64,000 bases of DNA from Oligoflexia bacterium (GCA_046317855.1 JBKCVM010000147.1:3956-67955); one strand, 5' to 3'; counted from the stretch's first letter, positions 6,057-51,105 are shown. Notes: generated from the letters alone by a model not told the origin. Numbers and translations: made by a program.

Positions 6057-7103
6057 ATGAGCGCATACGCCAATCCACAAAATCAGTCCCAAGCCGCCTC
6101 AGGCCTTGGGCAACTGGAGGGCTTGGCCGGAACGCTACGGGCCTTGGAGTCAGCTCTTCATCAAGAAAAAGAAAAATCCCGCAAGCTGGCTGCTGATTTA
6201 GCAGCCCAGTCGAATGCACAAGAGCAGGCCCTCCAAGAGCTGCGCACCCGCAATCGAGAGCTCGAGCTCAACCAAGAAAAATATAAAGCCGCGGTGTCGC
6301 TTCACCTCGAAAATGAAAACAAGATTTCCCAGCAGTACAAAGGTCTCAACGCGGAGTATCTGCGTCTGAGGGACGAGCTCAATCAGTACCGCGCTGCTTG
6401 GGCCGAGGTCCTTCAGCGTGAAAAAGAGGCAAAGCTCATCATTGCAGAGGGGGATAAGGCCCGAGAGCGAATTCGAGACCTCGAAAGGCAGCTGGACTCT
6501 GCTCTCGGGGAACAGGCCGAGTCCAGAAAACGCATTGAGCAACTGGAGCGCCACTCTAAGAGCTATCAAGAGGAGCTGCAGGCTGCGCTCATCCGTCTTC
6601 ATAGCGCTGAGAGTAAGTTTTCAGAGCTATCAAAAGAGTACGAGACTTTTAGGGCTTCAAAGCGAAACATGGACGAAGAGTTAGCCAAGATTGAAGCCAC
6701 GATGAGCGAGCGCATGCAGTGGGCTGCACTCAAAGAGCGTGAAAAGATTAGGACTGAGCTTGAGAAAGAGGCGGCCCAGGACCGCGAAAAATCGCGAGAA
6801 GCCTTTCACGAAATTCGCATCTCACTTGAGGCGCAGTTGGCCCGTCTTACGCAGAGTGTGATGGCAGAGGAGCGCCGCTCTCAGCAGCTCAGTAGCGTCT
6901 TGATCACAGAAAAAGTGCGGCATCAGGATGAGCTCTCCTTGTTGCAAGAAGAAGTACTAGGAATGCGCAAGATCCTGATTGAGGCCGTGGATTCGGAGGT
7001 CGATTTGGAGCTTGTGCTGGAGCAGCTCGACCAACAGCAGCAGCGCATCGCCGCAGCAAGAGCTAAGGCCACCGTGATGGCGCAGCCGGATGCGTCAATT
7101 TGA
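6057..7103 (+). CDS. Coiled-coil protein (Gln/Glu/Leu/Arg-rich, 348 aa), function unknown
   Basis: Heptad-type composition over essentially the whole length, with no enzymatic motifs. The 3' end overlaps the downstream GIY-YIG gene by 14 bp. Confidence 0.5.
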   Translation: MSAYANPQNQSQAASGLGQLEGLAGTLRALESALHQEKEKSRKLAADLAAQSNAQEQALQELRTRNRELELNQEKYKAAVSLHLENENKISQQYKGLNAEYLRLRDELNQYRAAWAEVLQREKEAKLIIAEGDKARERIRDLERQLDSALGEQAESRKRIEQLERHSKSYQEELQAALIRLHSAESKFSELSKEYETFRASKRNMDEELAKIEATMSERMQWAALKEREKIRTELEKEAAQDREKSREAFHEIRISLEAQLARLTQSVMAEERRSQQLSSVLITEKVRHQDELSLLQEEVLGMRKILIEAVDSEVDLELVLEQLDQQQQRIAAARAKATVMAQPDASI

Positions 7104-12750: not shown

Positions 12751-13506
12751 ATGAGTGCGCAGCCCGGTAGTTCGTCAGGTCCTTCCCTTAAGCCCCACAT
12801 CCGCCTAGCGGCCGATCCCCGCTTCAAGCGAGCGGTTGTCTGTGGCGCTCCGGAGCGAGCCGCGCTGATTGCAAGCCAGCTCGAAAATCCGCAGGAGCTG
12901 GCCAAGAACCGTGAGTATCATTCGTACATCGGAAAGCACAAAGGCGTCGAAGTGATGGCCATCTCCCATGGAGTGGGCGCTGCCGGCGCCACGATCTGCT
13001 TTCAGGAGTTGATCGATGTGGGTGTGCAGTCGATCATCCGAGTAGGGACGGCAGGGGGTCTGCAGGACGAAGCGCAGATCGGCGATGTGGCGCTTGCCGT
13101 TGCAGCGGTCCGGCAGGAGGGTGTGACCCCGCTCATGGTGCCGATGGGTTTTCCGGCCGTGGCCGACTCGGCACTGACCGCCGGTCTTGCAGGCGCCCTG
13201 CTCGAAAAAGGCCGCAAGTTCCATCGCGGCGTCGTGCTCACGAGCGATGTGTTTTACCCGGGAATTTTGGACACCGACCTCAGGCTCTACCAAAAGGCCG
13301 GTTGCGTTGCCGTGGAGATGGAGTGCTCGGCGCTTTTTGTTACGGCACTGCTCAGGCGCGTGCGCGCGGCCGGCGTGCTAGCGCTCGATGGTAATCCGCT
13401 TAAGTGGGCTGAAGGAAACTATAATCCTACCGCAGGATCGCTCGACCAGGCGCTTCGCGCCGCAATCGCGGCCGCGCTCGACGCCATCGTGCTGCCGGTT
13501 GAGTGA
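12751..13506 (+). CDS. Nucleoside phosphorylase, PNP/UDP family 1 (purine nucleoside or uridine phosphorylase-like)
   Basis: SHGVGAAGATICFQELIDVGVQSIIRVGTAGGL and VEMECSALF are family-1 nucleoside phosphorylase motifs. Confidence 0.7.
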   Translation: MSAQPGSSSGPSLKPHIRLAADPRFKRAVVCGAPERAALIASQLENPQELAKNREYHSYIGKHKGVEVMAISHGVGAAGATICFQELIDVGVQSIIRVGTAGGLQDEAQIGDVALAVAAVRQEGVTPLMVPMGFPAVADSALTAGLAGALLEKGRKFHRGVVLTSDVFYPGILDTDLRLYQKAGCVAVEMECSALFVTALLRRVRAAGVLALDGNPLKWAEGNYNPTAGSLDQALRAAIAAALDAIVLPVE

Positions 13507-14273
13507 GTTTTTCAAAGCACCCCATCTTATTCGAAGACGCCGACCTGGTGCTGGTGGACAAACCGGCTGGCGTGCTCTCGCACCCCAACCCCGGCGCCAA
13601 GGCCGCGCCAGGCTCCTGCGCCTTTGAGGGAAAGTACGATTTCAACGCCAAGACCTTTGCCACGCCCTCGGGCACGCTCTGGCTTTTGCACCGGCTTGAC
13701 CAAGACACTTCGGGCGTGTTGCTTGCCGCTCGAACCGAAAAGGCTGCGCGCGCGTTGCGCGAAGCCTTTGATGCCGGGCGCGTGGCCAAGCACTACCTTG
13801 CACTGGTGCGCGGGATTGCCGACGAAAAGGGAGTGTGGCGCGACCACCTTGAGTCGTCTCGAGAGGGGCGCGGGGGGCGTGACGGCTCGCGCGTTCGCAC
13901 GCGCGTGGTGCGCGGTCGCGCTGCCAATGCCGAGCTCAAGTTTGTGCGACGCGAGGTTTTTGCCGCGCAGCGGGTGAGCCTGCTTGAGATTGAGCTCGTC
14001 ACCGGGCGCACGCACCAGATCCGTGTTCAGGCCGCCTCACGCCAGCACCCGATTGCTGGCGATGACCTTTACGGCGATTTTGCCTGGAACAAGCGTCTGC
14101 GCAAGGAGTGGGGCCTTAAGCGCTTGTTCCTCCACGCTGCATCGCTTGAGTTTGTGCACCCCGGCACCAGGCGGCGCGTTTGCATCGAGTCTGCGCTGCC
14201 GGGGGAGCTGGAGCGGGTCAAGGGGGACACATCCCCTCTCGTGAAAAGCGTCAACACGTCCACCCCATGCTAG
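13503..14273 (+). CDS. RluA-family pseudouridine synthase
   Basis: HRLDQDTSGVLL catalytic Asp motif and TGRTHQIRVQ motif; 4-bp overlap with the upstream gene. Confidence 0.8.
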   Translation: MSFSKHPILFEDADLVLVDKPAGVLSHPNPGAKAAPGSCAFEGKYDFNAKTFATPSGTLWLLHRLDQDTSGVLLAARTEKAARALREAFDAGRVAKHYLALVRGIADEKGVWRDHLESSREGRGGRDGSRVRTRVVRGRAANAELKFVRREVFAAQRVSLLEIELVTGRTHQIRVQAASRQHPIAGDDLYGDFAWNKRLRKEWGLKRLFLHAASLEFVHPGTRRRVCIESALPGELERVKGDTSPLVKSVNTSTPC

Positions 14274-14282
14274 ACTCAAAGG

Positions 14283-15551
14283 ATGGTTCGTGGGGTGTTC
14301 AGTGCGCGGCGTTGGGACCGCAGCCGTGGCCAGAGCCTGGTCGGGGTATTGAGCGCGATGGCGGGATCGCTCGTGCTCTTTGCTGTCTCTGCACAGCTCA
14401 TGATTCAGATGAATCGTATCAAGTCAGACGATGAGCTGGAGAGCTCCTTTCAGCAGATGACCCAGCTCGTGGGCCTGAGCTTGGCAAATCCGGGCTCCTG
14501 CGGTGAGTTCTTTGCCAATCAGCAGATCACCTACCAGGCGGGGGCTGGCCAAGGAGGGGCTGGATGGCAACATGTTGCAGATCCTGCAAGGCCCCTGGTC
14601 TTGGGTGTATTGGCGCCTCCCACCAGTACCCCTCAGCGGTTTGGGCCTTGGGCCGTTCAGAGTTTGAGTCTGCAGATCGAAGACTGCAAGGTGTGGGATG
14701 CCTCCACCGGTTCTCACGTTTCCTGCATCGGTGCGCAGGCAGGTCAGCCGCTCTCTCAACCCACCGAGTTGGTTGGAACTCTGTCTGTCACCGTCAACTC
14801 AACCCGGCCCTCGACCGGCGTGGCAGTGGTTCGGACGACAGAAAAGTTTCCGTTTTTAGTTCGTACTCCGACTGGTCCCAGCCCTCTGGCTCCCGGAGTT
14901 TCATCGTATGTTTTGCCAGCACAAGGTGCCTGCGGGCTCCAAGGGCCATCCGGGGGACAGCCGCCAGCAAATCTGCGCCAACTGCTCTGTAATTCGCTCT
15001 GCATTTCTCCTTCGGCCATGGTTTCAAGAACGGGTTGTTGGGATCCGATCACCGAGCAGTGTGACTTATCCTATCAGACTTGCGATGCGCTTAGGGTTTC
15101 GCGCGCGGGTGTTAATCGGTGTGAGAAAACAAACTTCCGAAATGAATTTGTTCGTGGCGGTTACATTGGGGCTTCGCAAAATCCTTGCCCTGCAGACGAG
15201 GCGGCCGTTGGATTTAGGCTCAAGTATCCGTCGCTGCACTCTTCTGCAGACTCTCAAATGATCTGCCGTCCCTACGGTCCGGCTCCTACGAACCCTCCTG
15301 AGTCCTGCCCCAGTTGCGCAGTGAGGGTTGAGCGTGCGCCTCCGCCAGCACCAAGCACTCGGGCGGCACAGTGCCTCAATTATTGTGTGGGATTGAGCCC
15401 ACCCTCGGGCCAGTTGACGGCTTGGCTGCATACTGGGGCCAATGCTCAGCCAGTCAGTGGTGGGGGAGTCTCGGCGTTCTGTTCTTGCGGGACTCCTAAG
15501 GCAGGGTTTGAGTTCTGTAGACAACCCAGAACAGGGTGTACCGGACTATGA
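14283..15551 (+). CDS. Large Cys-rich pilin-like protein 1 (prepilin-type N-terminus lacking Glu5, GspK/PilX-like)
   Basis: Basic leader ...RWDRSRG, then hydrophobic QSLVGVLSAMAGSLVLFAVSA. The C-terminal 250 aa carries about 20 Cys and is Gly/Pro/Ser-rich. Confidence 0.5.
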   Translation: MVRGVFSARRWDRSRGQSLVGVLSAMAGSLVLFAVSAQLMIQMNRIKSDDELESSFQQMTQLVGLSLANPGSCGEFFANQQITYQAGAGQGGAGWQHVADPARPLVLGVLAPPTSTPQRFGPWAVQSLSLQIEDCKVWDASTGSHVSCIGAQAGQPLSQPTELVGTLSVTVNSTRPSTGVAVVRTTEKFPFLVRTPTGPSPLAPGVSSYVLPAQGACGLQGPSGGQPPANLRQLLCNSLCISPSAMVSRTGCWDPITEQCDLSYQTCDALRVSRAGVNRCEKTNFRNEFVRGGYIGASQNPCPADEAAVGFRLKYPSLHSSADSQMICRPYGPAPTNPPESCPSCAVRVERAPPPAPSTRAAQCLNYCVGLSPPSGQLTAWLHTGANAQPVSGGGVSAFCSCGTPKAGFEFCRQPRTGCTGL

Positions 15552-16717
15552 GCACCCTTTTGCAAACAATGGTGGTGGCACTCATGGTGCAAGGGACGAT
15601 GCTTGGAGTCATGAGTAACCGGCTCTCGCAAAAAAATGCGCATATGAACCAAATGGTGATGGCAGATCGAGATGCGTTTCAGGGCCAAATCCAAAAGGCT
15701 CTTGCTGCGCCCGAGACGTGTTGGCAGATGCTGCAAAAGGTTGATTTTTCGACTACCGGCACGGCTGCAGGGCTGGTGCTGATGGTTCCAGGAGACTCTG
15801 AGAGCTCAAGTCCGTGGGTCCGGCCAGATATGTCTTGGAATAGCCTACTCATCCAAGAGATCTCGGTAAACACGCAGGACTGCGATTCAAACACCGATCC
15901 ACTTTGCGGTACCTCAGCCAATTACACAAAGAAAGCGACCTTAGTATGGGAAGGTCAGGCCCGCGCTGGGAGCGCCAGAAAAATTGGCGGCACGATCGGC
16001 CCCATTTATGCCGATTACGATAACAAGACCTGTGCGTTGATGCTGCAAGGCACAAGTACGGGTTCGGCCTCTGGCGTAGATTGCCAGAGTTTTGGGGGAG
16101 ACTGTGGCGGAAGCAGAACTCTGCAGCTCACGCTGCGAAATTCTGGCTTTAGTTCCTATCCATTTGCTTCGATTCCGCTAGAAGAGCTCTCGGCTCTGTC
16201 GGGATGGGAGATGTCAACCGAGCTTCGAGCTGCCACAGTGGGCGGATGTCCAGTGGGCTATGCAGTGTCTCAGGTTAACAATGAATCTTGGGCAGTAACT
16301 GGAGCGGCCAATTTTAATTGCGTGCCGCTTGTCCCAAATCTTGGAACACCTAACAACGGCTGCGCGCGGTTAAACTACCAAACTTGCTATTATCAGGGTC
16401 CCTCTCACTTTTACGGACTCTGCCCGGATGGGAGTACCACTCTTAGCTATTACGCTATTTTTACGGGTAACGTCCTTCAAGGGCAGGAGTTTCGTTGCGG
16501 CCCGCCGGTCGGTTTGCAGCCTTGTGATAGTGTGACTTACACACAGCCTTCACTTCCTCCTTCAAACCCTGATTTTTCCGACTTCTTTGGGGTCGAACCC
16601 ACGGCGGGTATTCCAGATCCCGGAAATAACCCAGCCAATCCCATCGGCCATCCCGTCAATGGTGCCTCTTGCAGAACGGGATGTATTCACCTTCCAGGGA
16701 CCACCGCATGTCAGTAA
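15536..16717 (+). CDS. Large Cys-rich pilin-like protein 2 (N-terminal hydrophobic helix, non-canonical leader)
   Basis: N-terminal TLLQTMVVALMVQGTMLGVM helix. C-terminal half is Cys/Gly-rich like its neighbours. The start is uncertain (GTG 15536 or ATG 15548). Confidence 0.45.
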   Translation: MYRTMSTLLQTMVVALMVQGTMLGVMSNRLSQKNAHMNQMVMADRDAFQGQIQKALAAPETCWQMLQKVDFSTTGTAAGLVLMVPGDSESSSPWVRPDMSWNSLLIQEISVNTQDCDSNTDPLCGTSANYTKKATLVWEGQARAGSARKIGGTIGPIYADYDNKTCALMLQGTSTGSASGVDCQSFGGDCGGSRTLQLTLRNSGFSSYPFASIPLEELSALSGWEMSTELRAATVGGCPVGYAVSQVNNESWAVTGAANFNCVPLVPNLGTPNNGCARLNYQTCYYQGPSHFYGLCPDGSTTLSYYAIFTGNVLQGQEFRCGPPVGLQPCDSVTYTQPSLPPSNPDFSDFFGVEPTAGIPDPGNNPANPIGHPVNGASCRTGCIHLPGTTACQ

Positions 16718-17877
16718 CTCCGATCAAACTTAGAGCGGGAATGGGACTTGTGGAGGTCATGGTCGCTGCGTCTGTGATTGCAGCTTCGGTGCTTGGGGGG
16801 TTGGGAGCGGCTGAGTATTATGCCCGTTCGTCTGTCAGCCAAGCCCAAGATCAAGCGCTCTTGCGCCTTTTTAGAGGGATTGAATTGATTTTGAGTAGCC
16901 CCTCAACGTGCGATGCCAATCTCAAGGGGCAGGATGTAGGATCTTCGGGGCGATTTTCACTCAGTGAGTTGAGTGTGTCGGGTTCTGTGGCCGGAAGTGT
17001 GGCAAGCCCCTTTGTGCGCGTCGTGACTCATCAGCAGGGCAGTCAGCCGGCAAACGCCTTTCCACTGGGCGCCTCTGGATCAAGAGCCATCTGGGTCACG
17101 GGTCTTGAGTTTAATCGGGTTGGGCAAGTCGCTACGATTCAGCGTTATGAATTTAGAATCAGTGTGCAGATGCCCAGTGGTGCTGGAATGGTTCGAACTC
17201 TCAATCCGGCAACCGCCACGAGGACCCTTCAAGTTTATCTGGAGGTCAACTCTAACAACCGAGTGAGTCGCTGCGTGACTCCCAGTGCGAGCGGTGCTGC
17301 AGCTCCGCCCACCACGGCTCAGTCGGCCTGTGAGTCTTTGGGGGGTCAATGGGTGCGGGATCCTTCTCCTTCTGCCCTGGGCGAGTGGTGCATTCTTTCT
17401 AGGGTGGTCTGCCATGGGTGGAATCTCAGATACGATCCGGTCTCTCGTCACTGTAATATGGACGACGTCTACAAGGCCGGAGGCTTGGCGATGATCGCAA
17501 CCGGTCCGTGTCCAGAGGGTCAATCTCTTCGGAGTTTAGCGCCGGATGGGACCCCCCTTTGCGACTCACCTCGAAACCCTCAGCCGCCAGTGGTGGGAAA
17601 AGACGCACTCGGTTTAGAGCCCACGGTGACTGCAAACTGCGGTGATTGCTGGATGGATAGCGCCGTAGATTGCTACGCCCACAATCCGGCGATCCAACCC
17701 CCGGCTGAGCCATATGAGAGGCGGATGCGGTTCATGGTTTTCAAGCGAGGTCAGTTTCACAGCTCTACTTGCGCCCTGGGTCCTCCGCCCGGACTGAATA
17801 AGTGTGTTTCGTTTGAGCCAGGCACTGATGCTTGGGATGTGCCTTTTAAAGGTCGGCCCTGCGCCCCATCTCCGTAG
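16708..17877 (+). CDS. Large Cys-rich type IV pilin / pseudopilin-like protein 3 (canonical prepilin cleavage/methylation motif)
   Basis: MSVTPIKLRAG|MGLVEVMVAASVIAASVL: G at -1, E at +5, hydrophobic helix. About 18 Cys in the C-terminal domain. The ORF-track start at 16669 may be an extension. Confidence 0.55.
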   Translation: MSVTPIKLRAGMGLVEVMVAASVIAASVLGGLGAAEYYARSSVSQAQDQALLRLFRGIELILSSPSTCDANLKGQDVGSSGRFSLSELSVSGSVAGSVASPFVRVVTHQQGSQPANAFPLGASGSRAIWVTGLEFNRVGQVATIQRYEFRISVQMPSGAGMVRTLNPATATRTLQVYLEVNSNNRVSRCVTPSASGAAAPPTTAQSACESLGGQWVRDPSPSALGEWCILSRVVCHGWNLRYDPVSRHCNMDDVYKAGGLAMIATGPCPEGQSLRSLAPDGTPLCDSPRNPQPPVVGKDALGLEPTVTANCGDCWMDSAVDCYAHNPAIQPPAEPYERRMRFMVFKRGQFHSSTCALGPPPGLNKCVSFEPGTDAWDVPFKGRPCAPSP

Positions 17878-17897
17878 CCATGACGCGGTGCTTAAGT

Positions 17898-17935
17898 AAA
17901 AGGTGTCGGACACCCTGGGGTGTCCGACACCTTTT
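17898..17935. terminator. Bidirectional intrinsic terminator between convergent genes
   Basis: Perfect 16-17 bp inverted repeat AAAAGGTGTCGGACACC / GGTGTCCGACACCTTTT with a 4-nt loop, flanked by A-tract/T-tract on both sides. Confidence 0.6.
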
Positions 17936-17942
17936 AGACCTT

Positions 17943-19655: not shown

Positions 19656-21284
19656 GTGAGTGACGCAGGCGGCTTGGATCTCGAAATGCTGGAGCAGCTC
19701 AAGGGCGTGTTTGCGCGCCTTGAAAACCCCGTCACGCTTCGAATTGAAAAGGGTGGGGACGAAAATCCCCAAAGCGCAGAGCTTGAGCAAATGCTCAAGG
19801 CCGTCGCTTCCGCTTCTCCCAATGTAAAGGTCGAGCACGGACCCCGCGTTTCTCCTGGCACCGCTCCCGCATTCGAAATCTTGCGCGGCACTCCCGGTGT
19901 GCTGCGCACCGGCATTCGGTTTCGTGCGATTCCGGGCGGGCACGAGTTCAGCTCGCTTGTGCTTGCCATTTTGCATGCCGACGGCAAGGGCAAGCTTCCG
20001 GACGAAGCCGTCACCCAGCGCATTCGCGCGCTTCGCGGGCCGATCCGGCTTCGCACCTACATGTCGCTTTCGTGCGAAAACTGCCCCGAAGTGGTGCAGG
20101 CCCTGAACCTCATGGCAGCCCTGCACCCGGACTTTGAGCACGAAACCATCGATGGCGCGCTTGCGCAGCAGGAAGTCACGGCACTCGCAATCCAGGGCGT
20201 GCCTGCAGTGGTTGCGCCGGGAGCGTTCGAAAGCGAGTGGAACCTTCTGCACTCGGGCAAGATCGCCCTGATCGACCTGCTCGCAAAGCTCGAGGCCCGT
20301 TTTGGAAAAAACGAGGCGGCGGTGACCACCCCAAAAGATCTCGGCCGCTTTGATGTCGTCGTGGTGGGCGGGGGTCCGGCGGGAGCCTCGGCTGCCATCT
20401 ATTCGGTGCGAAAGGGCCTGAGCACGGTCGTGCTTGCCGAACGGTTTGGTGGACAACTGCAAGACACCAAGGGCATCGAGAACATGATTTCGAAATCGTA
20501 CACCGAGGGCGTGCGCCTTTCGGCCGAACTTGCCGAGCACCTGGGCAAGTATCCGGTACGACTTCTTGAGCATAGGCGCGTGAATCGCGTGGGCCCACGT
20601 GACGGCGATGGGTATCGGCGCGTGGATCTGGAGAGCGGCGAGACGCTCGAGGCGCGAACGCTGATCGTGGCCACGGGCGCCAAGTGGCGGGAGCTCGGCG
20701 TGCCTGGAGAGAAAGAACACATCGGGCAGGGGGTTGCGTTTTGCGCGCACTGCGACGGGCCATTCTACAAGCAAAAGCGAGTGGTCGTCGTGGGTGGCGG
20801 AAATTCAGGTGTCGAGGCGGCGATCGATCTCTCTGCCATTGCAACCCATGTGACGCTGCTGGAGTTTAACACCGAACTCAAGGCCGACGGCGTGCTCGTT
20901 GAAAAGCTCAAGACCCTCGGCAATGTGGTGGTCCATACCGGCGCCCGCACCACGCGTGTGCTGGGTGAAGGTGGAAAGGTGGTTGGCCTTGAGTACGAGG
21001 ATCGCGAAAGCGGCCAAGTGAAGCGGCTCGATGTGGATGGAGTGTTCGTCCAGATCGGGCTTCTTCCGAACTCGCAGTTCGTCAAAGGCATCGTTGAAAC
21101 CACGCCCTACGGCGAAATCGTGGTCGACTCCAAGGGCCGCACCAACGCTCCGGGCATTTACGCTGCGGGCGATGTGACCACCGTGCCCTTTAAGCAAATC
21201 GTCATTGCGATGGGCGAGGGCGCCAAGGTGGCGCTCGCCGCATTTGAAGATCGGATGCGCGAAGCCCCTACGCCGCCAGTTTGA
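19656..21284 (+). CDS. ahpF: Alkyl hydroperoxide reductase subunit F
   Basis: N-terminal thioredoxin-like double domain with CENCPE, FAD/NAD(P) binding GGGPAG, redox-active CAHCDG. GTG start preceded by GGAGG. Confidence 0.9.
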   Translation: MSDAGGLDLEMLEQLKGVFARLENPVTLRIEKGGDENPQSAELEQMLKAVASASPNVKVEHGPRVSPGTAPAFEILRGTPGVLRTGIRFRAIPGGHEFSSLVLAILHADGKGKLPDEAVTQRIRALRGPIRLRTYMSLSCENCPEVVQALNLMAALHPDFEHETIDGALAQQEVTALAIQGVPAVVAPGAFESEWNLLHSGKIALIDLLAKLEARFGKNEAAVTTPKDLGRFDVVVVGGGPAGASAAIYSVRKGLSTVVLAERFGGQLQDTKGIENMISKSYTEGVRLSAELAEHLGKYPVRLLEHRRVNRVGPRDGDGYRRVDLESGETLEARTLIVATGAKWRELGVPGEKEHIGQGVAFCAHCDGPFYKQKRVVVVGGGNSGVEAAIDLSAIATHVTLLEFNTELKADGVLVEKLKTLGNVVVHTGARTTRVLGEGGKVVGLEYEDRESGQVKRLDVDGVFVQIGLLPNSQFVKGIVETTPYGEIVVDSKGRTNAPGIYAAGDVTTVPFKQIVIAMGEGAKVALAAFEDRMREAPTPPV

Positions 21285-21645
21285 AGGTCACTTCTTTATA
21301 CTCGACCTGCGGCTGTCGAACGGTACGCCCGGAAACCTTGGCCTTCTTGACCCGGATTACGCCAACTTCTTCGAAGAATCGGATGACCTTGTTCAGGTTG
21401 GAGATGTCGGTGCCGGTGAGCTTGGCCAGTTCGTAGATTGAACGGGGCTTGTAGGCGATGATTGCGGACAGAATTGGAATGTTCCGAACAAAGCGATTGA
21501 AGTCCGTCTTGTTGTCAAAGCTCACCTCAAATTCGGCTTCGCCCCGAAATGTCCCCTTCTGGACCGAGCGGGCTGCTCGCTTGAAGTCTTCAAACACCTG
21601 GTCTGCCGTCTTGCACGAAACTACGAGTCTTTTCACAGGGCTCAT
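21268..21645 (-). CDS. Winged-HTH DNA-binding protein (125 aa), downstream member of a TA-like pair
   Basis: HTH segment SIYELAKLTGTDISNLNKVIRFFEEVGVI. Start overlaps the stop of the upstream 70-aa ORF (ATGA, 4 bp). 3' end overlaps the ahpF 3' end convergently by 17 bp. Confidence 0.5.
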   Translation of the reverse strand: MSPVKRLVVSCKTADQVFEDFKRAARSVQKGTFRGEAEFEVSFDNKTDFNRFVRNIPILSAIIAYKPRSIYELAKLTGTDISNLNKVIRFFEEVGVIRVKKAKVSGRTVRQPQVEYKEVTFKLAA

Positions 21646-23418: not shown

Positions 23419-24423
23419 ATGTCATTACTCACTAAAGCGGTTGCACCTTTTTTGTTTAGTATTGCGCTTGCTCCTATGGCTCATGCTGCGCCGGCCCCGT
23501 CATTATCTAATGTCGGGCCTGGAGTTGGATCTGGATCTTCAAGCCTGCCTCCCAGCTCGTCCGGAACCTCGATGGGAACTTCAACCTCGTCGCGTCCGAC
23601 GTCGGGCATCGGCCGATTCTTGGGCTTGAGCTATATGTCTTTTTTCAATGGCCCAGCCCTCAACGGAGATTTTTGGAAAAGTCCGGGCGCCACGGGCCGG
23701 CCGAGTGATTTGGGTTGGACGCTCAATAACAACGCGTCCGTTAAGTATAAGTTTAGTCAAAATTATGCCTTCGATGTGCAGTTTCGTTTTCAGGGGGTGC
23801 TGTCCAATCAATTTGGTGCTCGCTGGCAGGGTGCGCGTGTCGGGATTTCAGGTCTCTTAGGCAGAATCGAAGCGCAGAGTTTTCAGCTGATTTGGACCGG
23901 TGCCGTTAATACCGACGTTCCAGGAATGGGCCAGATCAATCAGGACCGTACCGTGATCATGAATCCCGGGCTCTTTTCAAATCTCACGGTGCGTCCGCGA
24001 GGAAGTCGCTGGTCTTTGTACACTTTCTTGTCGCCCAGAGTATTTCTCTACCGAGATAACCTCGCAATGGAGCCTCAGGCAGCCATGATGGGCATGAACC
24101 CCGGCGATAAGCCGCAGATCGCGTTTTTTGCGATTCCTTCGGTAAACTACGACATCTCTGAAAACACTGCTCTGCGTTCAGGCATCACGATCAACATTTC
24201 TAAGAATGCAAACTCATCCAGCTTTCGCCGGTGGTTTGCGCCGATCGACTTTGGAATCTCTCACAAGTTCAATCAAGCTCTGAGCATCTATCCCAACGTT
24301 TCGGTATCAGGGCCCTGGGATGATGGCATTAGGCAGGACATGGCAGCCCGGCGGGGGAGCTCGGTCATGGATTGGACCAAGACAGCGAGCGTGGGCCTCT
24401 GGCTCAGCGGAACTATCCTATAA
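23419..24423 (+). CDS. Secreted or outer-membrane protein with Ser/Gly-rich N-terminal linker and probable beta-barrel
   Basis: Signal peptide ...PMAHA; low-complexity SSSLPPSSSGTSMGTSTSS; alternating hydrophobic beta-strand pattern; C-terminal aromatic residue. Confidence 0.45.
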   Translation: MSLLTKAVAPFLFSIALAPMAHAAPAPSLSNVGPGVGSGSSSLPPSSSGTSMGTSTSSRPTSGIGRFLGLSYMSFFNGPALNGDFWKSPGATGRPSDLGWTLNNNASVKYKFSQNYAFDVQFRFQGVLSNQFGARWQGARVGISGLLGRIEAQSFQLIWTGAVNTDVPGMGQINQDRTVIMNPGLFSNLTVRPRGSRWSLYTFLSPRVFLYRDNLAMEPQAAMMGMNPGDKPQIAFFAIPSVNYDISENTALRSGITINISKNANSSSFRRWFAPIDFGISHKFNQALSIYPNVSVSGPWDDGIRQDMAARRGSSVMDWTKTASVGLWLSGTIL

Positions 24424-24561: not shown

Positions 24562-26292
24562 CTAGGGAGTATCTATGAAGGGTGCGGTGTAACCTTCGCG
24601 CGCAAGGGCTTCGCGAATTAGTGAGACATGGTCTTGGCTAAATGAGCGCTCTGAGCGAGTTCTCAAAAAGACGCCGACCGATGCTGGCCCTCTTTCTCTA
24701 GGGCGAAAGTCGATCGCAATCAGTGTTTCATTTAGTTGCTCTCTCGAGACGAAACCTTTCATTGTCCTGCGTAGTAGCTTTTCGAGTCTTTCGGCCTCGA
24801 CAATGAGGCTCGAGCGCAGCTCTGTGGGAATCATTGCCGGGGTCATGGCCGGGGTTATGGCTTCTGGTCCTTCATAAATCGACGGTACAAACGTAATTCT
24901 AAAGCTATCTGGGGGGGCCTGAGCCATTAAGTTCGTCAAAAAGACCTTCTTGTCGTCATCGTTGAGGGGGCGCTGAGGCATAAAGATGCCATCATCACCA
25001 AAAAAGGAGGCGCCCTTTTGGCTTGGAAAAGTCTGCTCAATGGCAGCATCAAAGCTACGCTTAGTGGCTTCAAAGTGGAGCGTTGCTTTGACTTCACCTG
25101 CGCGAACTGCGCGGATCGTTGCACTTAGGTCTTGCCCGTAAGTATCTGCTAGCGCGCGAGCGGTTTGCTCTATATTGCGCGCGTTCTGCCCTTTTATATC
25201 AGCCGATATGATGCCGAGCTGCGCCTGGGAGAGATCGACCCCTTGGTGCTTTTCGATGAAGATCCCAGGCGAGAACTGATCGATCTCAGCCAAGTAGTTT
25301 TGAAGTCGAAGCGCTTGGTCAGAGCTCAGTCGTAGGCCAAAGGCCTTTTCAAAATCGGTCTGCAGCGAGGCAGTGAAACGATCGGGCGTGGTACTTTCGG
25401 GGGCAACTTTGCGAATGACTTCGATTGCTTCGGCCGAAAGGGTTTGAGCACCACTGCCATCGGTTGATGTTGGAGTCAGTGCGCCCGGGACTGTGCGCAG
25501 AAATTGGATAATTTCTTTTCGGTGGGCCTCACTCTGGGCTGCAGCTGCGCTGAGTGTCTGTCTCACATCTCCAAAGTACTGGATCGGGGGAGGTGTGTTG
25601 CTTTGGATTTGTTTTCTTGCCTGGCGGGCTGCCAGCCCCGCTTCGTCCGGGGTGCTGCCCATTCCACCAAGAAACCAGGTAGAGGGGGCTCGTGCGACCT
25701 TTCTTTTTTCAGAACTCCAAATGGAGACGAGCCCCGGAGAGCGCAGTTCTTGCTCGAAAAGCTCGTTTGTTTTTTGAAGGAGCCGATCGAGCCTCTTCCG
25801 AAACTCGGGATCGCTCCTTTGATTGTTTCTCTGAAAGCAGAGCCGTACTGATTTGAAATCTGAATATTGTCCTAAAAGAGATTTTTGGAGCTCCGGGTCC
25901 TCTGAAAGGGCCTGCCACAAGAGAGACTTGTGGAGATTGGTGAGGGCAGTGACCAGATCCTTATCGCGGACCACACTGTCATTGAGCTCCTTCATCAGGG
26001 AGTTCTGAATATCGATAAAGAGGGCGCCAGGCGGCCCGTCTCCTTGGTTGGCCTTTTTAGAGAGTGCGATGAAGGCCCGATTGTCGGCCTCACCGATATC
26101 AGGGAAGTTGCTAAAGTGACGGCGTAGCGTCACTGCGTTTAGCTGACGGGGATGGGTCTGAACGGCGCGGTTAGCACCAAGGCGACTGAAGTAGGACTCA
26201 CAGCTAGTTCGGAGCTGCGCATGGACAGAGGGAGTTGCCCCCGGGAGCAGAAAGGCGGCGAGGACCCCAAAATGAATCAGCCAAGATTTCAT
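24562..26292 (-). CDS. Secreted hypothetical protein (about 575 aa)
   Basis: Signal peptide MKSWLIHFGVLAAFLLPGATPSVHAQ and no recognisable catalytic motif. The ORF-track start at 26343 is a likely extension. Confidence 0.45.
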   Translation of the reverse strand: MKSWLIHFGVLAAFLLPGATPSVHAQLRTSCESYFSRLGANRAVQTHPRQLNAVTLRRHFSNFPDIGEADNRAFIALSKKANQGDGPPGALFIDIQNSLMKELNDSVVRDKDLVTALTNLHKSLLWQALSEDPELQKSLLGQYSDFKSVRLCFQRNNQRSDPEFRKRLDRLLQKTNELFEQELRSPGLVSIWSSEKRKVARAPSTWFLGGMGSTPDEAGLAARQARKQIQSNTPPPIQYFGDVRQTLSAAAAQSEAHRKEIIQFLRTVPGALTPTSTDGSGAQTLSAEAIEVIRKVAPESTTPDRFTASLQTDFEKAFGLRLSSDQALRLQNYLAEIDQFSPGIFIEKHQGVDLSQAQLGIISADIKGQNARNIEQTARALADTYGQDLSATIRAVRAGEVKATLHFEATKRSFDAAIEQTFPSQKGASFFGDDGIFMPQRPLNDDDKKVFLTNLMAQAPPDSFRITFVPSIYEGPEAITPAMTPAMIPTELRSSLIVEAERLEKLLRRTMKGFVSREQLNETLIAIDFRPRERGPASVGVFLRTRSERSFSQDHVSLIREALAREGYTAPFIDTP

Positions 26293-26466
26293 TTCGGTGG
26301 CCTGATTGCAGGATTTCTCGCCAGATATCAAGGGCCGTATCATTAGGATTCTATTCGGTAAAAGAACAGAGCGGGTTCAGTTTTTCTAAACTGATTCAGA
26401 TCTCAGGATGGGTCTGAATTTTTGATTTCCGGCGCTTGAGAGTCCTAAATTCGGTCTAAAAGAGCC

Positions 26467-27279
26467 CTAGAGCGAACCCAGGGCCTCTAAAAACCGGTCG
26501 CCCACCCGCTCAAGCTCCTGTGGATGGGCCCGATAGTGCTCAGCGGCTGGGCCCGAGAGGATGAGGCCCGGCTCGGGCTTGAGTTCAATCGTCAATTGCG
26601 TGTCGCTTCGGGCTCCTAGCAATGCCTTGACGTTGGCAAAAACCGATAGGCCTCCGGGTTGAGCCACCGTGCCGTCAGGATTGAGTCTGGGACCAAAGAA
26701 AGTACCAAATACTGCGGGCTTGCCCTGCTGATCGCGCAAAAATACCTGTGAAACCATAAGGTCCGTCGGAAAGTTCTCGTCCACGGCCTTGATCAACGTT
26801 GCCATCCCCAACCAACGAAGACTTCGGATGTCGAGGTAAGCAAGAAACTGAGCGTTTCGAGAAAACGCCACTCCCGCGTTGACCTGAACTAGCGGCACAT
26901 CGGTTCCAAGCGGCATGCCGTTTGGCAGAGTGCTCGTGGGCTCCATTTGAACGTACTCGTTGTCGTAGAGCACGCTCATATTGAGATTGAAGCCAGCTTG
27001 AAAGGGTTGGGAACCCTGTACGAACGGGAGCGTGTAAAGAGTGCCATAATCTTTGATAGCAAATTCGTTCGAGAAATTGGCTCGCACTCGCTGGGTGAAC
27101 ACGAGAGAGACCTTGGCAGTGTTGAGGTCAGGAGAAATTTCAAAGACTGCTTTGTCGATATATTTTTTAGTGAACTTGCACCCTGAGCCGGTCAGGGCAA
27201 ACGAGGCCAGCAGGGCAGCAACTGCAAAAGATGCTAAGGGTGCGCAAGACTTAAAGGAGCGTAGAATTTTCATAGTCAT
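26467..27279 (-). CDS. Lipoprotein, hypothetical
   Basis: Signal peptide plus lipobox LTGSG|C after MTMKILRS. Start is trimmed from 27420 to avoid overlap with the upstream gene. Confidence 0.45.
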   Translation of the reverse strand: MTMKILRSFKSCAPLASFAVAALLASFALTGSGCKFTKKYIDKAVFEISPDLNTAKVSLVFTQRVRANFSNEFAIKDYGTLYTLPFVQGSQPFQAGFNLNMSVLYDNEYVQMEPTSTLPNGMPLGTDVPLVQVNAGVAFSRNAQFLAYLDIRSLRWLGMATLIKAVDENFPTDLMVSQVFLRDQQGKPAVFGTFFGPRLNPDGTVAQPGGLSVFANVKALLGARSDTQLTIELKPEPGLILSGPAAEHYRAHPQELERVGDRFLEALGSL

Positions 27280-27307
27280 AAAAGTATCTGGCCTGTGCCT
27301 TTTGTCG

Positions 27308-28147
27308 TCAATCGTGCTTTGGGGCTGCAGGAGCCGCGCCACGAACAAATGCGTCAACCTCACCCAGCACTTGTCGCAACGTGTCTTGAAGAGACGCAAA
27401 CTCTTGGGGCTTAGCCTCACGCGTTGATTCGTTCATGTAAAGCGCGCGATTTAGCTCGATTTGCACCGTGTGGTGCCCTTGGGCTGGCTTTCCGTAACGC
27501 TGTGTGATGCGACCGCCCTTGTACGGCCAATTAATCGAAACTCTTAATCCCGCTCTTGTAAAAGCCTGGACGATGAGAGCAACAAAATCGGGCCGCGAGG
27601 ATTTACCTTCAAAGTCTGAGATCACCACATCGGGTCGGCGAGCGCCGGTGTCGGCGTGGGCCGCAGTGCCCTGGCTGGGCATGCTATGGCAATCCAGGTG
27701 AAAAATCTGTCGCTTGGGGTCGTTGGCTCGGGCCTGGTTCACCAGTCGGGAGATTTCTAAATGAAATGGGTCATTGTAGAGCTCAATCAGCTTTTGGTGC
27801 AGCTCCATCGACAGAGGTGCATTGAGAATGGCCTGTCCTTGAGTGGTCTTGGCCCAGTGAAAGCCCTTGGTGTGAGTGCCCTCGACGAGCGGTGCACCTT
27901 GGACAGTGCCCGCATCAATATCATCGGGCGTTCTGTTGAGGTCCACTGCGTACCGGTGAGCTCGCGCGACCACGTTTGCAACTTTGAATTCTTGTAGGGC
28001 GGGAGCAAAAAGGCGGTCGACAAAGCGGTCGACATCCATCAGCAAAACCGATGGCGAAAGAGATTTGAGCCAAAAGGCCTCAGGCGGGATCCACTCGCCC
28101 GAGTGAGGAATGGTTGCGATCAGCGTTGCCGGCACGGCCTGCTGCAT
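27308..28147 (-). CDS. N-formylglutamate amidohydrolase family (HutG-like zinc hydrolase)
   Basis: IPHSGEWIP N-terminal motif, HSMP motif, and overall FGase-family layout. Confidence 0.55.
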   Translation of the reverse strand: MQQAVPATLIATIPHSGEWIPPEAFWLKSLSPSVLLMDVDRFVDRLFAPALQEFKVANVVARAHRYAVDLNRTPDDIDAGTVQGAPLVEGTHTKGFHWAKTTQGQAILNAPLSMELHQKLIELYNDPFHLEISRLVNQARANDPKRQIFHLDCHSMPSQGTAAHADTGARRPDVVISDFEGKSSRPDFVALIVQAFTRAGLRVSINWPYKGGRITQRYGKPAQGHHTVQIELNRALYMNESTREAKPQEFASLQDTLRQVLGEVDAFVRGAAPAAPKHD

Positions 28148-28197: not shown

Positions 28198-28950
28198 CTA
28201 CTTAATCTCGATCACTTTGTTAATGGCTTGTCCGTTCAATGAGCGAACATGAAATAAGGTTTGGCCTTTCCACGGGGACTTAAAAGGCACCTGTCGCTCA
28301 AAAGGGACGAGATTCTGAACACAAGAGGTAGCGCCCGGATGAGTCACTTCAGCAACCGGAAGCACCTCGACAATATTAGCCTTACGCGCCAGGATTTGGA
28401 TCTCTTTGAGTTTGACGCAGTCGCCCGGGAGTTTGCCCTTTAGAGTCACGGTCCCATTCTCGTAACTGAAGTCATCTACGATGGCGTAAAATTTTTCATC
28501 CGGGCTGTTTGGAGATTCTCCCGGTGTCTCTCGTGCGCGAGAAATAGGCATCAGACCGAACTCTTTTTCTTTGGCTTGATCGGTCCGGATTTTGACTGAG
28601 TAATTGCCGGCAGGCAGCATCCCCACATCCACGACCGAAGTGTAAGGGATCATCACTTGTAAGCACCAAGGGGTGTCTAGAACATACGCTTGCTGAGTCA
28701 CGTGAATCGTGCGGGTCTCATGCTCGACTTCGGCTTTGGTGGGGCCCACTTTGAAGCAAGTGTTGATGAAGCTTCCGCTTAAAACGACTTGAGCGTGGTC
28801 ATTGGAGTCAAAGCCGGGAGGTGCAAAGACGGCTTCAGGAATATCTCGGATGATAGATACGCCGCCCTGTGCAAAGGCCAACGGAGCAGCGGCTGATGCG
28901 ACAGTGAGTGCAGTTGCCAGGCTAAAAAGTTTTTTTGAGAGGGTCTTCAT
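28198..28950 (-). CDS. Secreted hypothetical protein
   Basis: Strong RBS AAAGGAGA; signal peptide MKTLSKKLFSLATALTVASAAAPLAFAQ. Confidence 0.45.
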   Translation of the reverse strand: MKTLSKKLFSLATALTVASAAAPLAFAQGGVSIIRDIPEAVFAPPGFDSNDHAQVVLSGSFINTCFKVGPTKAEVEHETRTIHVTQQAYVLDTPWCLQVMIPYTSVVDVGMLPAGNYSVKIRTDQAKEKEFGLMPISRARETPGESPNSPDEKFYAIVDDFSYENGTVTLKGKLPGDCVKLKEIQILARKANIVEVLPVAEVTHPGATSCVQNLVPFERQVPFKSPWKGQTLFHVRSLNGQAINKVIEIK

Positions 28951-29155
28951 GAGCGATTCTCCTTTGATGGACAGCTGATATACCGCGTGAATAGCAGGCG
29001 GCATGCCAAAGGGAAAGAACTTGGATCATTTCAAGTGTGTTTCGAAAACACCTGCAGATAGGCTCATTTTTGAAGAGGGACCCCAAAGAGCCCATCCTTT
29101 GATCAAGGGCGGGCGAGGCACCTTGACTCACGGGTTGGGCTTTTTTGTCTCGGGC

Positions 29156-29860
29156 TCACGCCGCACGATCTGCACTCTCGCCTGATGCCTCGATCCACTT
29201 GCCAAGAGCTTCGAGAGAAGCGGATGCGACTTGCCCAAACGCTATTCGAGAACGCGCTGCGCCAGGGCGATCAGACTCAGTGAGTACTGAGCCAGTAAAG
29301 ACAAACTTATTGGTGGAGTTGGGCTCCGAGAGAAAAATAGTGCACTCCGCTCCAATTAAGTGTTCTGGGATAGCGCGTTCGAGCGCCATGCCACCCATCG
29401 AGATATTTTTGGTGAAGGTTCGAAAAGCATGTTTGTCAGAAATCAGGACAACCTGAAGTTTGATGTTTTTGCGGGGATACTGGCGACGATCGGCCCAGCT
29501 TCTTCTGTCCACACCAGCGCCTCGCCTTTCGCCATCTGATGGAGTGACAGGGCGAGCTTGCCCCAGTGAGCGGACTTGCCCCGCTGAGGGATCGAGAGCA
29601 ACTGTGAGATACTTCTCGAGCCAAGCGATTTGAGCGGACGACATTGCCAGCTCATTGGGAATGGGTGGAAGGCCAAACTTTCGTAACTTGAATGCCGGAA
29701 TCTCAGCACAAGAAAACCACTCTGGCCGGTCCGAGCGGCAAGCCAGCCAGCGCGTCAGCTCTACGGGCTCAAGAGCCGACAGAAAATTGACGAGCTCAGC
29801 ATCGGTGAGCTGTTCTCTCATCTCTCCTGTGGCCGAGTTTTTAGCGCTCCAATAGAGCAT
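29156..29860 (-). CDS. PilZ-domain protein (c-di-GMP receptor-like), about 235 aa
   Basis: C-terminal PilZ signature RRQYPRKNIKLQ ... NISMGGMAL (RxxxR ... D/NxSxGG). Start ATG at 29860 with RBS AAGGAG 12 nt upstream. The longer ORF-track version would overlap the divergent OMP gene by 320 bp. Confidence 0.55.
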   Translation of the reverse strand: MLYWSAKNSATGEMREQLTDAELVNFLSALEPVELTRWLACRSDRPEWFSCAEIPAFKLRKFGLPPIPNELAMSSAQIAWLEKYLTVALDPSAGQVRSLGQARPVTPSDGERRGAGVDRRSWADRRQYPRKNIKLQVVLISDKHAFRTFTKNISMGGMALERAIPEHLIGAECTIFLSEPNSTNKFVFTGSVLTESDRPGAARSRIAFGQVASASLEALGKWIEASGESADRAA

Positions 29861-29930
29861 GAGCAGCGCAATCTCCTTAGTCACTGTTTCGGCATGCAGG
29901 CCAGAAATTTTGAGGCTATCCTTAGAAGTA

Positions 29931-51103: not shown

Positions 51104-51105
51104 AA

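What the first reader, a model, noticed from the sequence alone, without database searches (positions are those of the whole stretch)
14283..17877. Three tandem genes for large (about 390-420 aa) Cys-rich prepilin-like proteins
Gene 3 has a canonical prepilin peptidase site (RAG|MGLVE, E at +5). Gene 1 has a basic leader, G, then a hydrophobic helix lacking E5 (GspK/PilX-like). Gene 2 has only the hydrophobic N-helix. All three have long C-terminal domains with about 18-20 cysteines each and Gly/Pro/Ser-rich stretches. They are twice the size of typical minor pilins, and no pilus assembly ATPase, PilC or secretin is nearby. They could be pilus-tip adhesins or priming-complex subunits. In a predatory organism they could be prey-recognition ligands, or they could form a previously uncharacterised pilin-like secreted family. 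The genes overlap slightly (15536/15551; 16669/16717), which suggests coupling.
Basis: seen in the sequence. Interest (0 to 1): 0.65.

Follow-up and report, generated by a model that had tools for sequence, protein, structure and literature searches.

The report
Accessory cassette of three pilin-like proteins
Three tightly linked genes in an uncultured Oligoflexia bacterium encode large, disulfide-rich proteins built on a type IV pilin-like N-terminus; they most likely form the tip of a pilus, sit in a strain-specific insertion that changes faster than its surroundings, and belong to a rare family with no existing annotation.

Summary
Three tandem, overlapping genes (g1 14283/14295-15551, g2 15548-16717, g3 16708-17877) encode 418-422, 389 and 389 aa proteins with 20, 16 and 14 Cys. 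No Pfam, NCBIfam or PHROG family matches them. The MAG annotation calls them hypothetical.

An exhaustive HMMER search found only four distant full-length g3 homologs, each the last gene of the same three-gene cassette. The g3 family keeps a canonical prepilin site (G|xGxxE). The g1 family keeps G|Q[ST]LVGVLSA without Glu5. The g2 family is leaderless (M[SG][TV]LLQ, Gln where Glu5 would be).

The cassette is absent from the same syntenic site in relatives. It differs 3-10% from a sister strain whose flanking proteins are identical.

Best reading: a stand-alone, variable tip or priming complex of modular minor pilins. It resembles Myxococcus KilLMN Tips and S. sanguinis PilABC in function but is not a sequence member of either. 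The filament type and the ligand are unknown.

The parts
14283..15551 (+). g1: 422 aa from ATG 14283, or 418 aa from GTG 14295. Pilin-like protein with a basic leader, a conserved Gly, then QSLVGVLSA... with no Glu5. It has 20 Cys. Candidate cap subunit of GspK/PilX type.
   Evidence: ORF. Ortholog L1a at 30% identity, E=4e-46. N-terminus G|Q[ST]LVGVLSA conserved. Full-length paralog of the g3 family by hhalign, 93.9%, E=1.6e-7. No Pfam or NCBIfam hit.
14328..14393 (+). g1 putative cleavage Gly (codon 14328-14330) followed by the hydrophobic alpha1N segment QSLVGVLSAMAGSLVLFAVSA.
   Evidence: This is the most conserved part of g1: 45% identity to L1a in residues 1-80 against 17-35% in most other 40-residue blocks (42% in one C-terminal block).
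15548..16717 (+). g2: 389 aa, leaderless pilin-like protein. The N-terminus is M-STLLQTMVVALMVQGTMLGVM, with Gln in register with pilin Glu5. It has 16 Cys. Its start overlaps the g1 stop (ATGA).
   Evidence: a stop codon lies 9 codons upstream and at most 4 extra residues are possible. Ortholog L1b starts MGVLLQAVVLSLMVQ, E=3e-26. Weak relation to the g3 family by hhalign, E=1.2e-4, 55%. In the alignment LLQTMVVAL sits under LVEVMVAAS.
16708..17877 (+). g3: 389 aa from ATG 16708 (the longest ORF starts at TTG 16669). Canonical prepilin-type protein MSVTPIKLRAG|MGLVEVMVAASVIAASVLGG, with 14 Cys.
16738..16755 (+). g3 prepilin peptidase motif: Gly-1 (16738-16740) through Glu+5 (16753-16755).
   Evidence: Motif scan of all six frames; alignment A1.
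17509..17562 (+). Cys-hairpin module CPEGQSLRSLAPDGTPLC inside the g3 C-terminal module. It resembles a unit repeated 3-8 times in fibre-like proteins from elsewhere.
   Evidence: P0008-P0017. The Cys, Asp and Gly are invariant in the g3 family. The repeat has no Pfam family.
17897..17936 (.). Perfect 19-nt inverted repeat with a flanking A-tract and T-tract, lying between the g3 stop and the convergent oxyR stop. Likely a bidirectional intrinsic terminator that ends the cassette transcript.

Best explanation
g1-g2-g3 are three distantly paralogous modular minor pilins that form the tip or priming complex of a type IV filament. Each has an N-terminal pilin module (hydrophobic alpha1N, alpha1C, small beta-sheet) fused to a novel disulfide-rich C-terminal module of about 200 aa.

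Inferred mechanism:
1. The three proteins are made in fixed stoichiometry from overlapping genes and anchor in the inner membrane by alpha1N.
2. Their periplasmic parts are oxidised to 7-10 disulfides each.
3. g3, and probably g1, is cut after the conserved Gly by a PilD-type prepilin peptidase. g2 needs no cut: removing its initiator Met would expose S/G at +1 with Gln at +5.
4. The three alpha1N helices bundle. g3 supplies the Glu5 that docks to the next subunit, while g1 and g2 lack Glu5 and sit at the distal end.
5. A major pilin then polymerises underneath. The canonical pilin at ~45.9 kb in the window is a candidate.
6. The Cys-rich modules are displayed at the tip as ligand-binding surfaces.

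The cassette is a stand-alone accessory unit. It is present or absent between close relatives and diverges fast in its C-terminal modules, as expected for an exchangeable specificity determinant.

What is shown: gene structure, family conservation, N-terminal motifs, paralogy, Cys conservation, accessory status and excess divergence.

What is inferred: processing, trimer formation, tip location and ligand binding.
For: - Prepilin motif: the g3 family keeps a basic leader, Gly-1 and Glu+5 across about 30% identity. N_methyl hits 5 of 6 full-length members, best E 5.9e-6. The family profile's only PDB sequence hits are pilin N-termini, and these are weak.
- Paralogy: g1~g3 at 93.9% probability over 328 columns, including the N-terminus. 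g2~g3 at E=1.2e-4.
- Conservation pattern: the N-terminal ~80 residues are the most conserved region of g1 and g2; in g3 the alpha1C block (residues 41-80, 55%) is, while its first 40 residues are not (25%). The N-terminal motifs of g1 and g2 are conserved in L001.
- Cassette conservation: the three-gene order and tight spacing recur in all five loci.
- Cysteines: all 50 Cys are identical in the sister strain. Cys are invariant in the g3 family. Mature Cys counts are even in the 11 distinct family members counted.
- Accessory status: two syntenic relatives have oxyR abutting rluA with no cassette. Other relatives also lack it next to oxyR.
- Divergence: 73 differences in 1196 aa against 0 in 627 aa of flanking OxyR, AhpC and the 125-aa protein, Fisher p=3e-14. 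The differences concentrate in the C-terminal modules.
- Precedent: tip complexes are capped by a Glu5-less subunit, and the three-protein PilABC set contains modular pilins (PMC10191384, PMC8179133). Myxococcus has stand-alone, disulfide-rich three-gene Tip clusters (PMC12075869).
Against: - No curated pilin family reaches threshold on the window proteins. g3 scores 10.4 bits on N_methyl against a cutoff of 21.2, and g1 and g2 score nothing.
- Models have low confidence: mean pLDDT 55.6 for g3 and 40.9 for g2. The g2 model borrowed the g3-family alignment.
- g2 has no leader, no Gly-1 and no positive charge before its helix, so neither peptidase processing nor an N-in topology is assured.
- g1 could be read as a long Sec signal with a VSA|Q cleavage site.
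- No assembly machinery lies in the window or next to any of the five cassettes.
- Trimer formation was not modelled.
- The flanking genes used as the divergence baseline are strongly constrained, and no DNA was available for dN/dS.
Confidence: 0.55

Rival explanations
1. These are not pilus subunits. They would be three membrane-anchored or Sec-exported, disulfide-rich periplasmic or surface proteins, such as an envelope adhesin or sensor complex. Their N-terminal helices would be ordinary signal anchors or signal peptides, and the g3 G|xxxxE motif would be a relic or a coincidence.
For: - g1 and g2 lack Glu5, and g2 lacks any leader or Gly-1.
- g1 has a possible SPase I site (AVSA|QL).
- The window proteins have no above-threshold pilin family hit.
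- No pilus machinery lies near any cassette.
- The models are of low confidence.
Against: - Gly-1 and Glu+5 are kept in all six full-length g3-family members at about 30% identity, with N_methyl E down to 5.9e-6.
- Signal peptides are normally the least conserved part of a protein. Here the N-terminal helix region is the most conserved part of g1 and g2.
- The predicted 50-residue continuous helix runs well past a membrane span.
- g1 aligns with g3 from the Gly onward.
Confidence: 0.2
2. The cassette is specifically a predation Tip of a Kil/Tad-type (type IVc) pilus. It would be the Oligoflexia counterpart of Myxococcus KilL/KilM/KilN and Bdellovibrio Bd0114/Bd0115/Bd0148, matured by a short Flp-type peptidase and used for prey contact.
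For: - It is a stand-alone three-gene cluster away from any machinery, with many disulfides and variable distal domains, as described for tip1-3.
- Tip-like complexes could only be found by structure, not sequence, outside Myxococcales, including in Bdellovibrio.
- The host is named Oligoflexia, and near-identical AhpC proteins are labelled Bdellovibrionales, a group with predators.
- The cassette is accessory and fast-diverging.
Against: - KilL/M/N are homologs of TadE/TadF/TadG, yet g1-g3 give no TadE, Tad or TadF Pfam hit even at E<=1.
- The g3-family N-terminus matches the PilD-type N_methyl motif.
- The only pilin in the window is of T4a/T2SS type.
- All Kil Tip pilins have a predicted cleavage site, and g2 has none.
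- The predatory lifestyle of this MAG is not established.
Confidence: 0.12
3. The three proteins are the tip pseudopilins of a type II secretion system, functional analogs of GspI/GspJ/GspK. In that case the Cys-rich modules would select secreted substrates rather than external ligands.
For: - The set is a heterotrimer-sized group with Glu5-less member(s), like GspK (PMC10191384).
- The g3 motif is of PilD/GspO type.
Against: - There is no sequence match to the T2SS I/J/K families.
- The genes are not in a gsp operon, whereas gspHIJK normally are.
- The proteins are two to four times larger than GspI/J.
- Presence/absence polymorphism and fast divergence are atypical of core secretion components.
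Confidence: 0.08

Closest known systems
Myxococcus xanthus KilL/KilM/KilN 'Tip' complexes of the Kil (Tad-like) pilus (Herrou et al. 2025, PMC12075869)
   Same: Both are three adjacent genes for pilin-like proteins. Several clusters stand alone, away from the machinery genes. Both have enlarged subunits with extra C-terminal domains of unknown fold and many predicted disulfides. In both, variable distal domains are proposed to set target specificity, and relatives outside the core group cannot be found by sequence.
   Different: KilLMN are TadE/TadF/TadG homologs, and all have predicted cleavage sites. g1-g3 show no Tad-family signal. g3 has a PilD-type N_methyl motif and g2 is leaderless. All three proteins here are large (389-422 aa), rather than one small and two extended. 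No Kil or Tad machinery is known for this MAG.
Streptococcus sanguinis PilA/PilB/PilC minor pilins (modular pilins; Raynaud 2021 PMC8179133; PMC9934059)
   Different: The grafted modules there are recognisable domains (vWA, lectin). Here they are novel Cys-rich modules. The S. sanguinis genes lie in the pil locus of a monoderm, and all have canonical class III signal peptides.
Core minor (pseudo)pilins GspI/GspJ/GspK and PilV/PilW/PilX (HIJK set)
   Same: Both are co-encoded sets that prime assembly and cap the filament, with a large Glu5-less subunit (GspK/PilX-like, compare g1). They give the best structural matches.
   Different: There is no sequence homology to those families. The genes are not in a machinery operon. 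The sizes are two to four times larger, and there are 14-20 Cys. Two of the three lack Glu5, and one lacks a leader altogether.
Type IVb minor pilins CofB/TcpB
   Different: CofB is a homotrimer of one protein encoded in the pilus operon. Here there are three different paralogs in a stand-alone cassette.

Membership tests
Type IV pilin / class III signal peptide protein (Pfam PF07963 N_methyl, TIGR02532) | Short, mostly basic leader ending in Gly (or Ala) at -1 | tested here: met
   Met for g3 (MSVTPIKLRAG|) and all g3-family members. Met for g1 (..RSRG|, and ..PASG| in L1a). NOT met for g2, where at most 4 residues precede the helix and there is no Gly-1.
Type IV pilin / class III signal peptide protein (Pfam PF07963 N_methyl, TIGR02532) | Glu at position +5 of the mature protein | tested here: inconclusive
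   Met for g3 and all six full-length g3-family members. Not met for g1 (Gly at +5) or g2 (Gln at the aligned position). Lack of Glu5 is itself typical of cap subunits such as GspK (PMC10191384).
Type IV pilin / class III signal peptide protein (Pfam PF07963 N_methyl, TIGR02532) | Score above the curated threshold of the family model | tested here: not met
   g3 scores 10.4 bits against 21.2 (Pfam) and 10.6 against 16.3 (TIGR02532). g1 and g2 have no hit. Among relatives, 5 of 6 full-length members hit N_methyl at E<=1, best 5.9e-6.
Type IV pilin / class III signal peptide protein (Pfam PF07963 N_methyl, TIGR02532) | Pilin fold: an alpha1 helix of about 50 residues packed on a 4-5 stranded antiparallel beta-sheet | tested here: inconclusive
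Type IV pilin / class III signal peptide protein (Pfam PF07963 N_methyl, TIGR02532) | Cleavage and N-methylation by prepilin peptidase; incorporation into a filament | not testable with these tools
   This needs biochemistry or proteomics. No peptidase gene lies in the window.
Core tip complex GspI/J/K - PilV/W/X | Sequence membership in the T2SS I/J/K or PilV/W/X families | tested here: not met
   No Pfam or NCBIfam hit at E<=1.
Core tip complex GspI/J/K - PilV/W/X | Encoded within the secretion or pilus machinery operon | tested here: not met
   In the window the neighbours are pnp-rluA and oxyR-ahpCF. None of the five cassette loci has machinery genes adjacent.
Core tip complex GspI/J/K - PilV/W/X | Contains a large subunit lacking Glu5 that caps the complex | tested here: met
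   g1 has a conserved Gly-1 and no Glu5; g2 has Gln.
Kil/Tad Tip (KilL/KilM/KilN = TadE/TadF/TadG-like) | Homology to TadE/TadF/TadG pseudopilins | tested here: not met
   No TadE (PF07811), Tad (PF13400) or TadF hit at E<=1. The homology requirement is taken from PMC12075869.
Kil/Tad Tip (KilL/KilM/KilN = TadE/TadF/TadG-like) | Three adjacent pilin-like genes, possibly stand-alone, with numerous intramolecular disulfides | tested here: met
   The cassette is conserved in five loci. There are 14-22 conserved Cys in even numbers. The disulfides themselves are inferred.
Kil/Tad Tip (KilL/KilM/KilN = TadE/TadF/TadG-like) | Confident heterotrimer model with an alpha1N bundle; genetic link to a Kil/Tad machine | not tested
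   No multimer prediction tool was available. The rest of the genome is not available.
Modular pilins (Raynaud et al. 2021) | An N-terminal pilin module followed by an additional module not specific to pilus biology | tested here: inconclusive
   About 190-220 residues follow the predicted pilin module and have their own invariant Cys pattern. One element, the CPxGxxxxxxxxDGxxxC hairpin, recurs as a repeat in unrelated fibre-like proteins. The fold of the module could not be assigned.

The most novel reading that the evidence does not exclude
The cassette is a new kind of self-contained, exchangeable pilus-tip unit. One subunit, g2, is a 'pre-processed' pilin. It has no leader, so removing its initiator Met alone yields a pilin-like N-terminus with Gln5. 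It would enter a type IV filament tip without prepilin peptidase. If so, the family would define a peptidase-independent route into type IV filaments. Together with the insertion/absence polymorphism and the fast-diverging Cys-rich modules, it would act as a swappable specificity cartridge in Oligoflexia.
Probability: 0.2. Interest if true: 0.75.

Novelty: new variant of a known kind. Interest (0 to 1): 0.5.

Why it matters
Minor-pilin tip complexes decide what a type IV filament sticks to, takes up or kills, and they prime its assembly. Until now, exchangeable three-gene Tip clusters have been shown genetically only in Myxococcus. Outside that group they cannot be found by sequence.

This cassette would add an unrelated sequence family with the same logic, from a poorly known lineage (Oligoflexia/Bdellovibrionota). 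It has a PilD-type rather than a Tad-type signature. There is direct comparative evidence that it is accessory and fast-evolving, which is what a specificity determinant should look like.

The conserved leaderless subunit raises a concrete, testable question: can a pilin-like protein join a filament without prepilin peptidase?

In practical terms, the three families are unannotated ('hypothetical protein'). They could be turned into profile models to find more such cassettes.

Tried and rejected
- Curated families: Pfam, NCBIfam and PHROGs gave nothing on g1-g3 except a sub-threshold N_methyl hit on g3.
- Word-index protein searches returned only the sister strain.
- Collection scans were all empty. 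Genome contigs was scanned with g3 and with the g1-family alignment. Metagenome contigs was scanned with the g3-subfamily and g1-family alignments. Viral contigs was scanned once. The seven-sequence alignment was too divergent to give search patterns.
- Foldseek against the PDB gave no hit at E<0.1. AFDB50 was unavailable.
- The profile search against PDB sequences found only two weak pilin N-termini.
The substitute alignment gave pLDDT 41.
- Phage or tail-fibre origin: rejected. There are no PHROG or viral hits, no integrase and no GC anomaly.
- Mobile-element boundaries: no flanking direct or inverted repeats were found, only the terminator hairpin.
- A sigma-70 promoter in front of g1: none found. 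Co-transcription with pnp-rluA remains possible.
- Further paralogs in the window: none.
- Literature precedent for a leaderless minor pilin: none found.


Full report
**1. Observation**

The region holds three same-strand ORFs: 14283-15551 (422 aa), 15536-16717 (393 aa) and 16669-17877 (402 aa).

Gene calls in a sister strain, ribosome-binding-site context and in-frame stops point to later starts:
- g1 starts at ATG 14283 or GTG 14295.
- g2 starts at ATG 15548, giving an ATGA overlap with the g1 stop.
- g3 starts at ATG 16708, a 10-nt overlap with g2.

- g3: MSVTPIKLRAG|MGLVEVMVAAS...
- g1: ...RRWDRSRG|QSLVGVLSAMAG... with no Glu5.
- g2: MSTLLQTMVVALMVQG... with no leader.

**2. The genes are real and belong to a rare family**

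Pfam, NCBIfam and PHROGs give nothing except a sub-threshold N_methyl hit on g3 (10.4 against 21.2 bits). Word-index searches of 5.8 billion proteins return only a sister strain at 94/90/97% identity.

The window matches an NCBI MAG named 'Oligoflexia bacterium' (MFN7685876-8), where all three proteins are called hypothetical.

An exhaustive phmmer search of g3 against 1.84 billion representatives found just four distant full-length homologs (31-33% identity, E 1e-24 to 3e-33). It also found a fragment and one partial relative, P0018.

Each full-length homolog is the last gene of a tight three-gene cassette of similar sizes: 412/353/371, 437/402/464, 380/354/356 and 408/376/373 aa.

Where DNA was available (L001), the cassette is orthologous gene by gene: g1 E=4e-46, g2 E=3e-26, g3 E=2e-42.

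Pattern scans of the GTDB species genomes, the JGI metagenome contigs and the viral contigs were all empty.

**3. Pilin nature**

All six full-length g3-family members keep a basic leader, Gly-1 and Glu+5, in the form G|[MLF][GS][LI][VT]E. N_methyl hits five of them, best E 5.9e-6.

The g1 family keeps G|Q[ST]LVGVLSA without Glu5. This is the pattern of cap subunits such as GspK. [quoted passage not shown]

The g2 family is leaderless in both loci. A stop lies no more than 9 codons upstream, at most 3-4 extra residues are possible, and there is no Gly-1. Its LLQ(T/A)(M/V)V segment aligns under the LVEV(M/L)V of g3, so Gln replaces Glu5. Ser or Gly at position 2 would favour Met removal (general knowledge). 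That would leave S/G at +1 and Gln at +5; this step is an inference.

Profile-profile comparison gives these results:
- g1 and g3 are full-length paralogs: 93.9% probability, E=1.6e-7, 328 columns starting at the Gly.
- g2 is related to g3 more weakly: E=1.2e-4, 55% probability.
- g1 against g2 is not significant.

The N-terminal ~80 residues are the most conserved region of g1 and g2. In g3 the alpha1C block (residues 41-80, 55%) is the most conserved, while its first 40 residues are not (25%). This pattern is usual for pilins and unusual for signal peptides.

**4. Structure**

The AF2 model of g3, built on seven sequences, has mean pLDDT 55.6. It predicts one continuous helix at 14-63 followed by long antiparallel strands with pLDDT 70-85. 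The C-terminal half is poorly defined.

The g2 model has pLDDT 41 and borrowed the g3-family alignment. It shows the same topology and 8 pilin hits in the top 60. I count this as weak and not independent. The fold of the C-terminal modules remains unassigned.

**5. Disulfide-rich modules**

All 50 Cys are identical between the two strains. Eleven Cys in the C-terminal half of g3 are invariant across the family. Every mature family member counted has an even number of Cys, 11 distinct sequences in all. This fits full pairing in an oxidising compartment, which is an inference.

One element of g3, CPEGQSLRSLAPDGTPLC, matches a unit repeated 3-8 times in long fibre-like proteins from elsewhere. 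That unit has no Pfam family. One carrier protein also has a CTHRC1_C domain and a weak tail-fibre hit.

**6. Context**

Pfam scans of every ORF of 200 aa or more that is not nested inside a larger assigned gene found no pilus ATPase, platform protein, secretin or peptidase. Seven of those ORFs matched no family.

The cassette lies at the convergent junction of pnp-rluA and oxyR-ahpCF. It starts 9 nt after the rluA stop. It ends at a perfect 19-nt hairpin with A and T tracts, which is probably a bidirectional terminator. No sigma-70 consensus promoter precedes it.

A canonical type IV pilin gene (G|FSLIELMVSVAVIG, N_methyl 27.8 bits) lies at ~45921-46586.

**7. Accessory and fast-evolving**

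Two relatives have OxyR 87% and 91% identical to the window's. They keep the whole neighbourhood (ahpF-ahpC-oxyR | rluA-pnp ... ECF sigma, anti-sigma, ABC-F), but oxyR abuts rluA with gaps of about 32 and 166 nt and there is no cassette. Other relatives have yjbQ after oxyR. In other genomes the cassette sits in unrelated places, for example after RNase PH or before a cytochrome oxidase cluster.

Between the window and the sister strain, OxyR, AhpC and the 125-aa protein are 100% identical over 627 aa. The cassette proteins differ at 22, 38 and 13 positions, 73 of 1196 in total (Fisher p=3e-14). In g2, 31 of 38 changes, including two indels, fall beyond residue 247.

There are two caveats. The baseline genes are strongly constrained. 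No sister DNA was available, so selection and recombination cannot be separated.

**8. Interpretation**

The best-supported reading is a stand-alone cassette of three modular minor pilins that forms a tip or priming complex. g3 would be the Glu5-bearing docking subunit and g1 and g2 the distal Glu5-less ones. The Cys-rich modules would be displayed as variable ligand-binding surfaces.

In function this parallels three known systems:
- the Myxococcus KilLMN Tips, which are stand-alone three-gene clusters with many disulfides and interchangeable specificity; Tip-like sets in Bdellovibrio were found only by structure (PMC12075869);
- the PilABC modular pilins of S. sanguinis (PMC8179133);
- the GspIJK and PilVWX complexes.

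Membership in those families fails on sequence: there is no Tad or Gsp family hit, and the N-terminal motif is of PilD type. I therefore file it as a new variant of a known kind.

The main rival, at about 0.2, is a non-pilus envelope complex with signal-anchor helices. The leaderless g2, the sub-threshold scores and the low-confidence models keep that reading alive.

The filament type (T4a, T2SS or Kil/Tad) cannot be decided from this window. Prey recognition remains speculation.

Noticed in passing
window ~45921-46586 (+): A stand-alone canonical type IV pilin gene (...ENAGG|FSLIELMVSVAVIGVLAAVAVPKF; Pfam N_methyl 27.8 bits, above threshold). It lies between an Exo_endo_phos gene and a urate/allantoin catabolism cluster. 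It is a candidate major pilin for the filament that the cassette would tip. Its leader would be unusually long (about 35 aa) if the first ATG is used.
   Followed up: partly
proteins P0008-P0017; single copy in g3 at window 17509-17562: A short disulfide-hairpin unit 'CPxGQxIRAIxxDGT(V/P)TC', spaced by 'TYTAGxGLxLxGTTFSVD', is repeated 3-8 times in long fibre-like proteins from metagenomes. The repeat has no Pfam family. One carrier protein ends in a CTHRC1_C domain.
   Followed up: partly
JGI 3300059473 contigs (no DNA available): In three relatives the cassette is preceded by divergently oriented genes of ~560 aa, 242-390 aa and ~562-591 aa that have no Pfam hits. This may be a conserved partner set, and it is not present next to the window's cassette.
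   Followed up: no
L002:197-1537 (P0018): A 446-aa relative of the g3 pilin module has a long leader and G|FGLVQVLASAAIMG, with Gln at +5 despite a normal Gly-1. It has 22 Cys, and its C-terminal part is made of repeated C-x5-C...GGxW units. It sits at a contig edge next to ribosomal protein genes.
   Followed up: partly
window 13503-14273 (+): RluA is 256 aa here but 245-249 aa in the two relatives that lack the cassette. The extra C-terminal residues, which end 9 nt before g1, may mark the insertion junction.
   Followed up: no
window 21268-21645 (-) and the adjacent ~96-aa ORF: The sister-strain annotation lists an HVO_A0114-type regulator next to a TumE-like protein. This may be a toxin-antitoxin-like pair between ahpF and the DEAD-box helicase.
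   Followed up: no
window 29156-30178 (-), 33364-38380 (+): A PilZ-domain protein (a c-di-GMP-binding type), a 1007-aa TPR protein and a 572-aa FHA-domain protein lie among several ORFs with no family assignment (6057-7103, 23419-24423, 24562-26343, 26467-27420, 28198-29004, 32264-33379).
   Followed up: no
window 46620-52464 (+): A purine or ureide catabolism cluster: urate oxidase N-terminal domain protein, amidohydrolase, allantoicase and DUF6986/HpcH-like protein.
   Followed up: no
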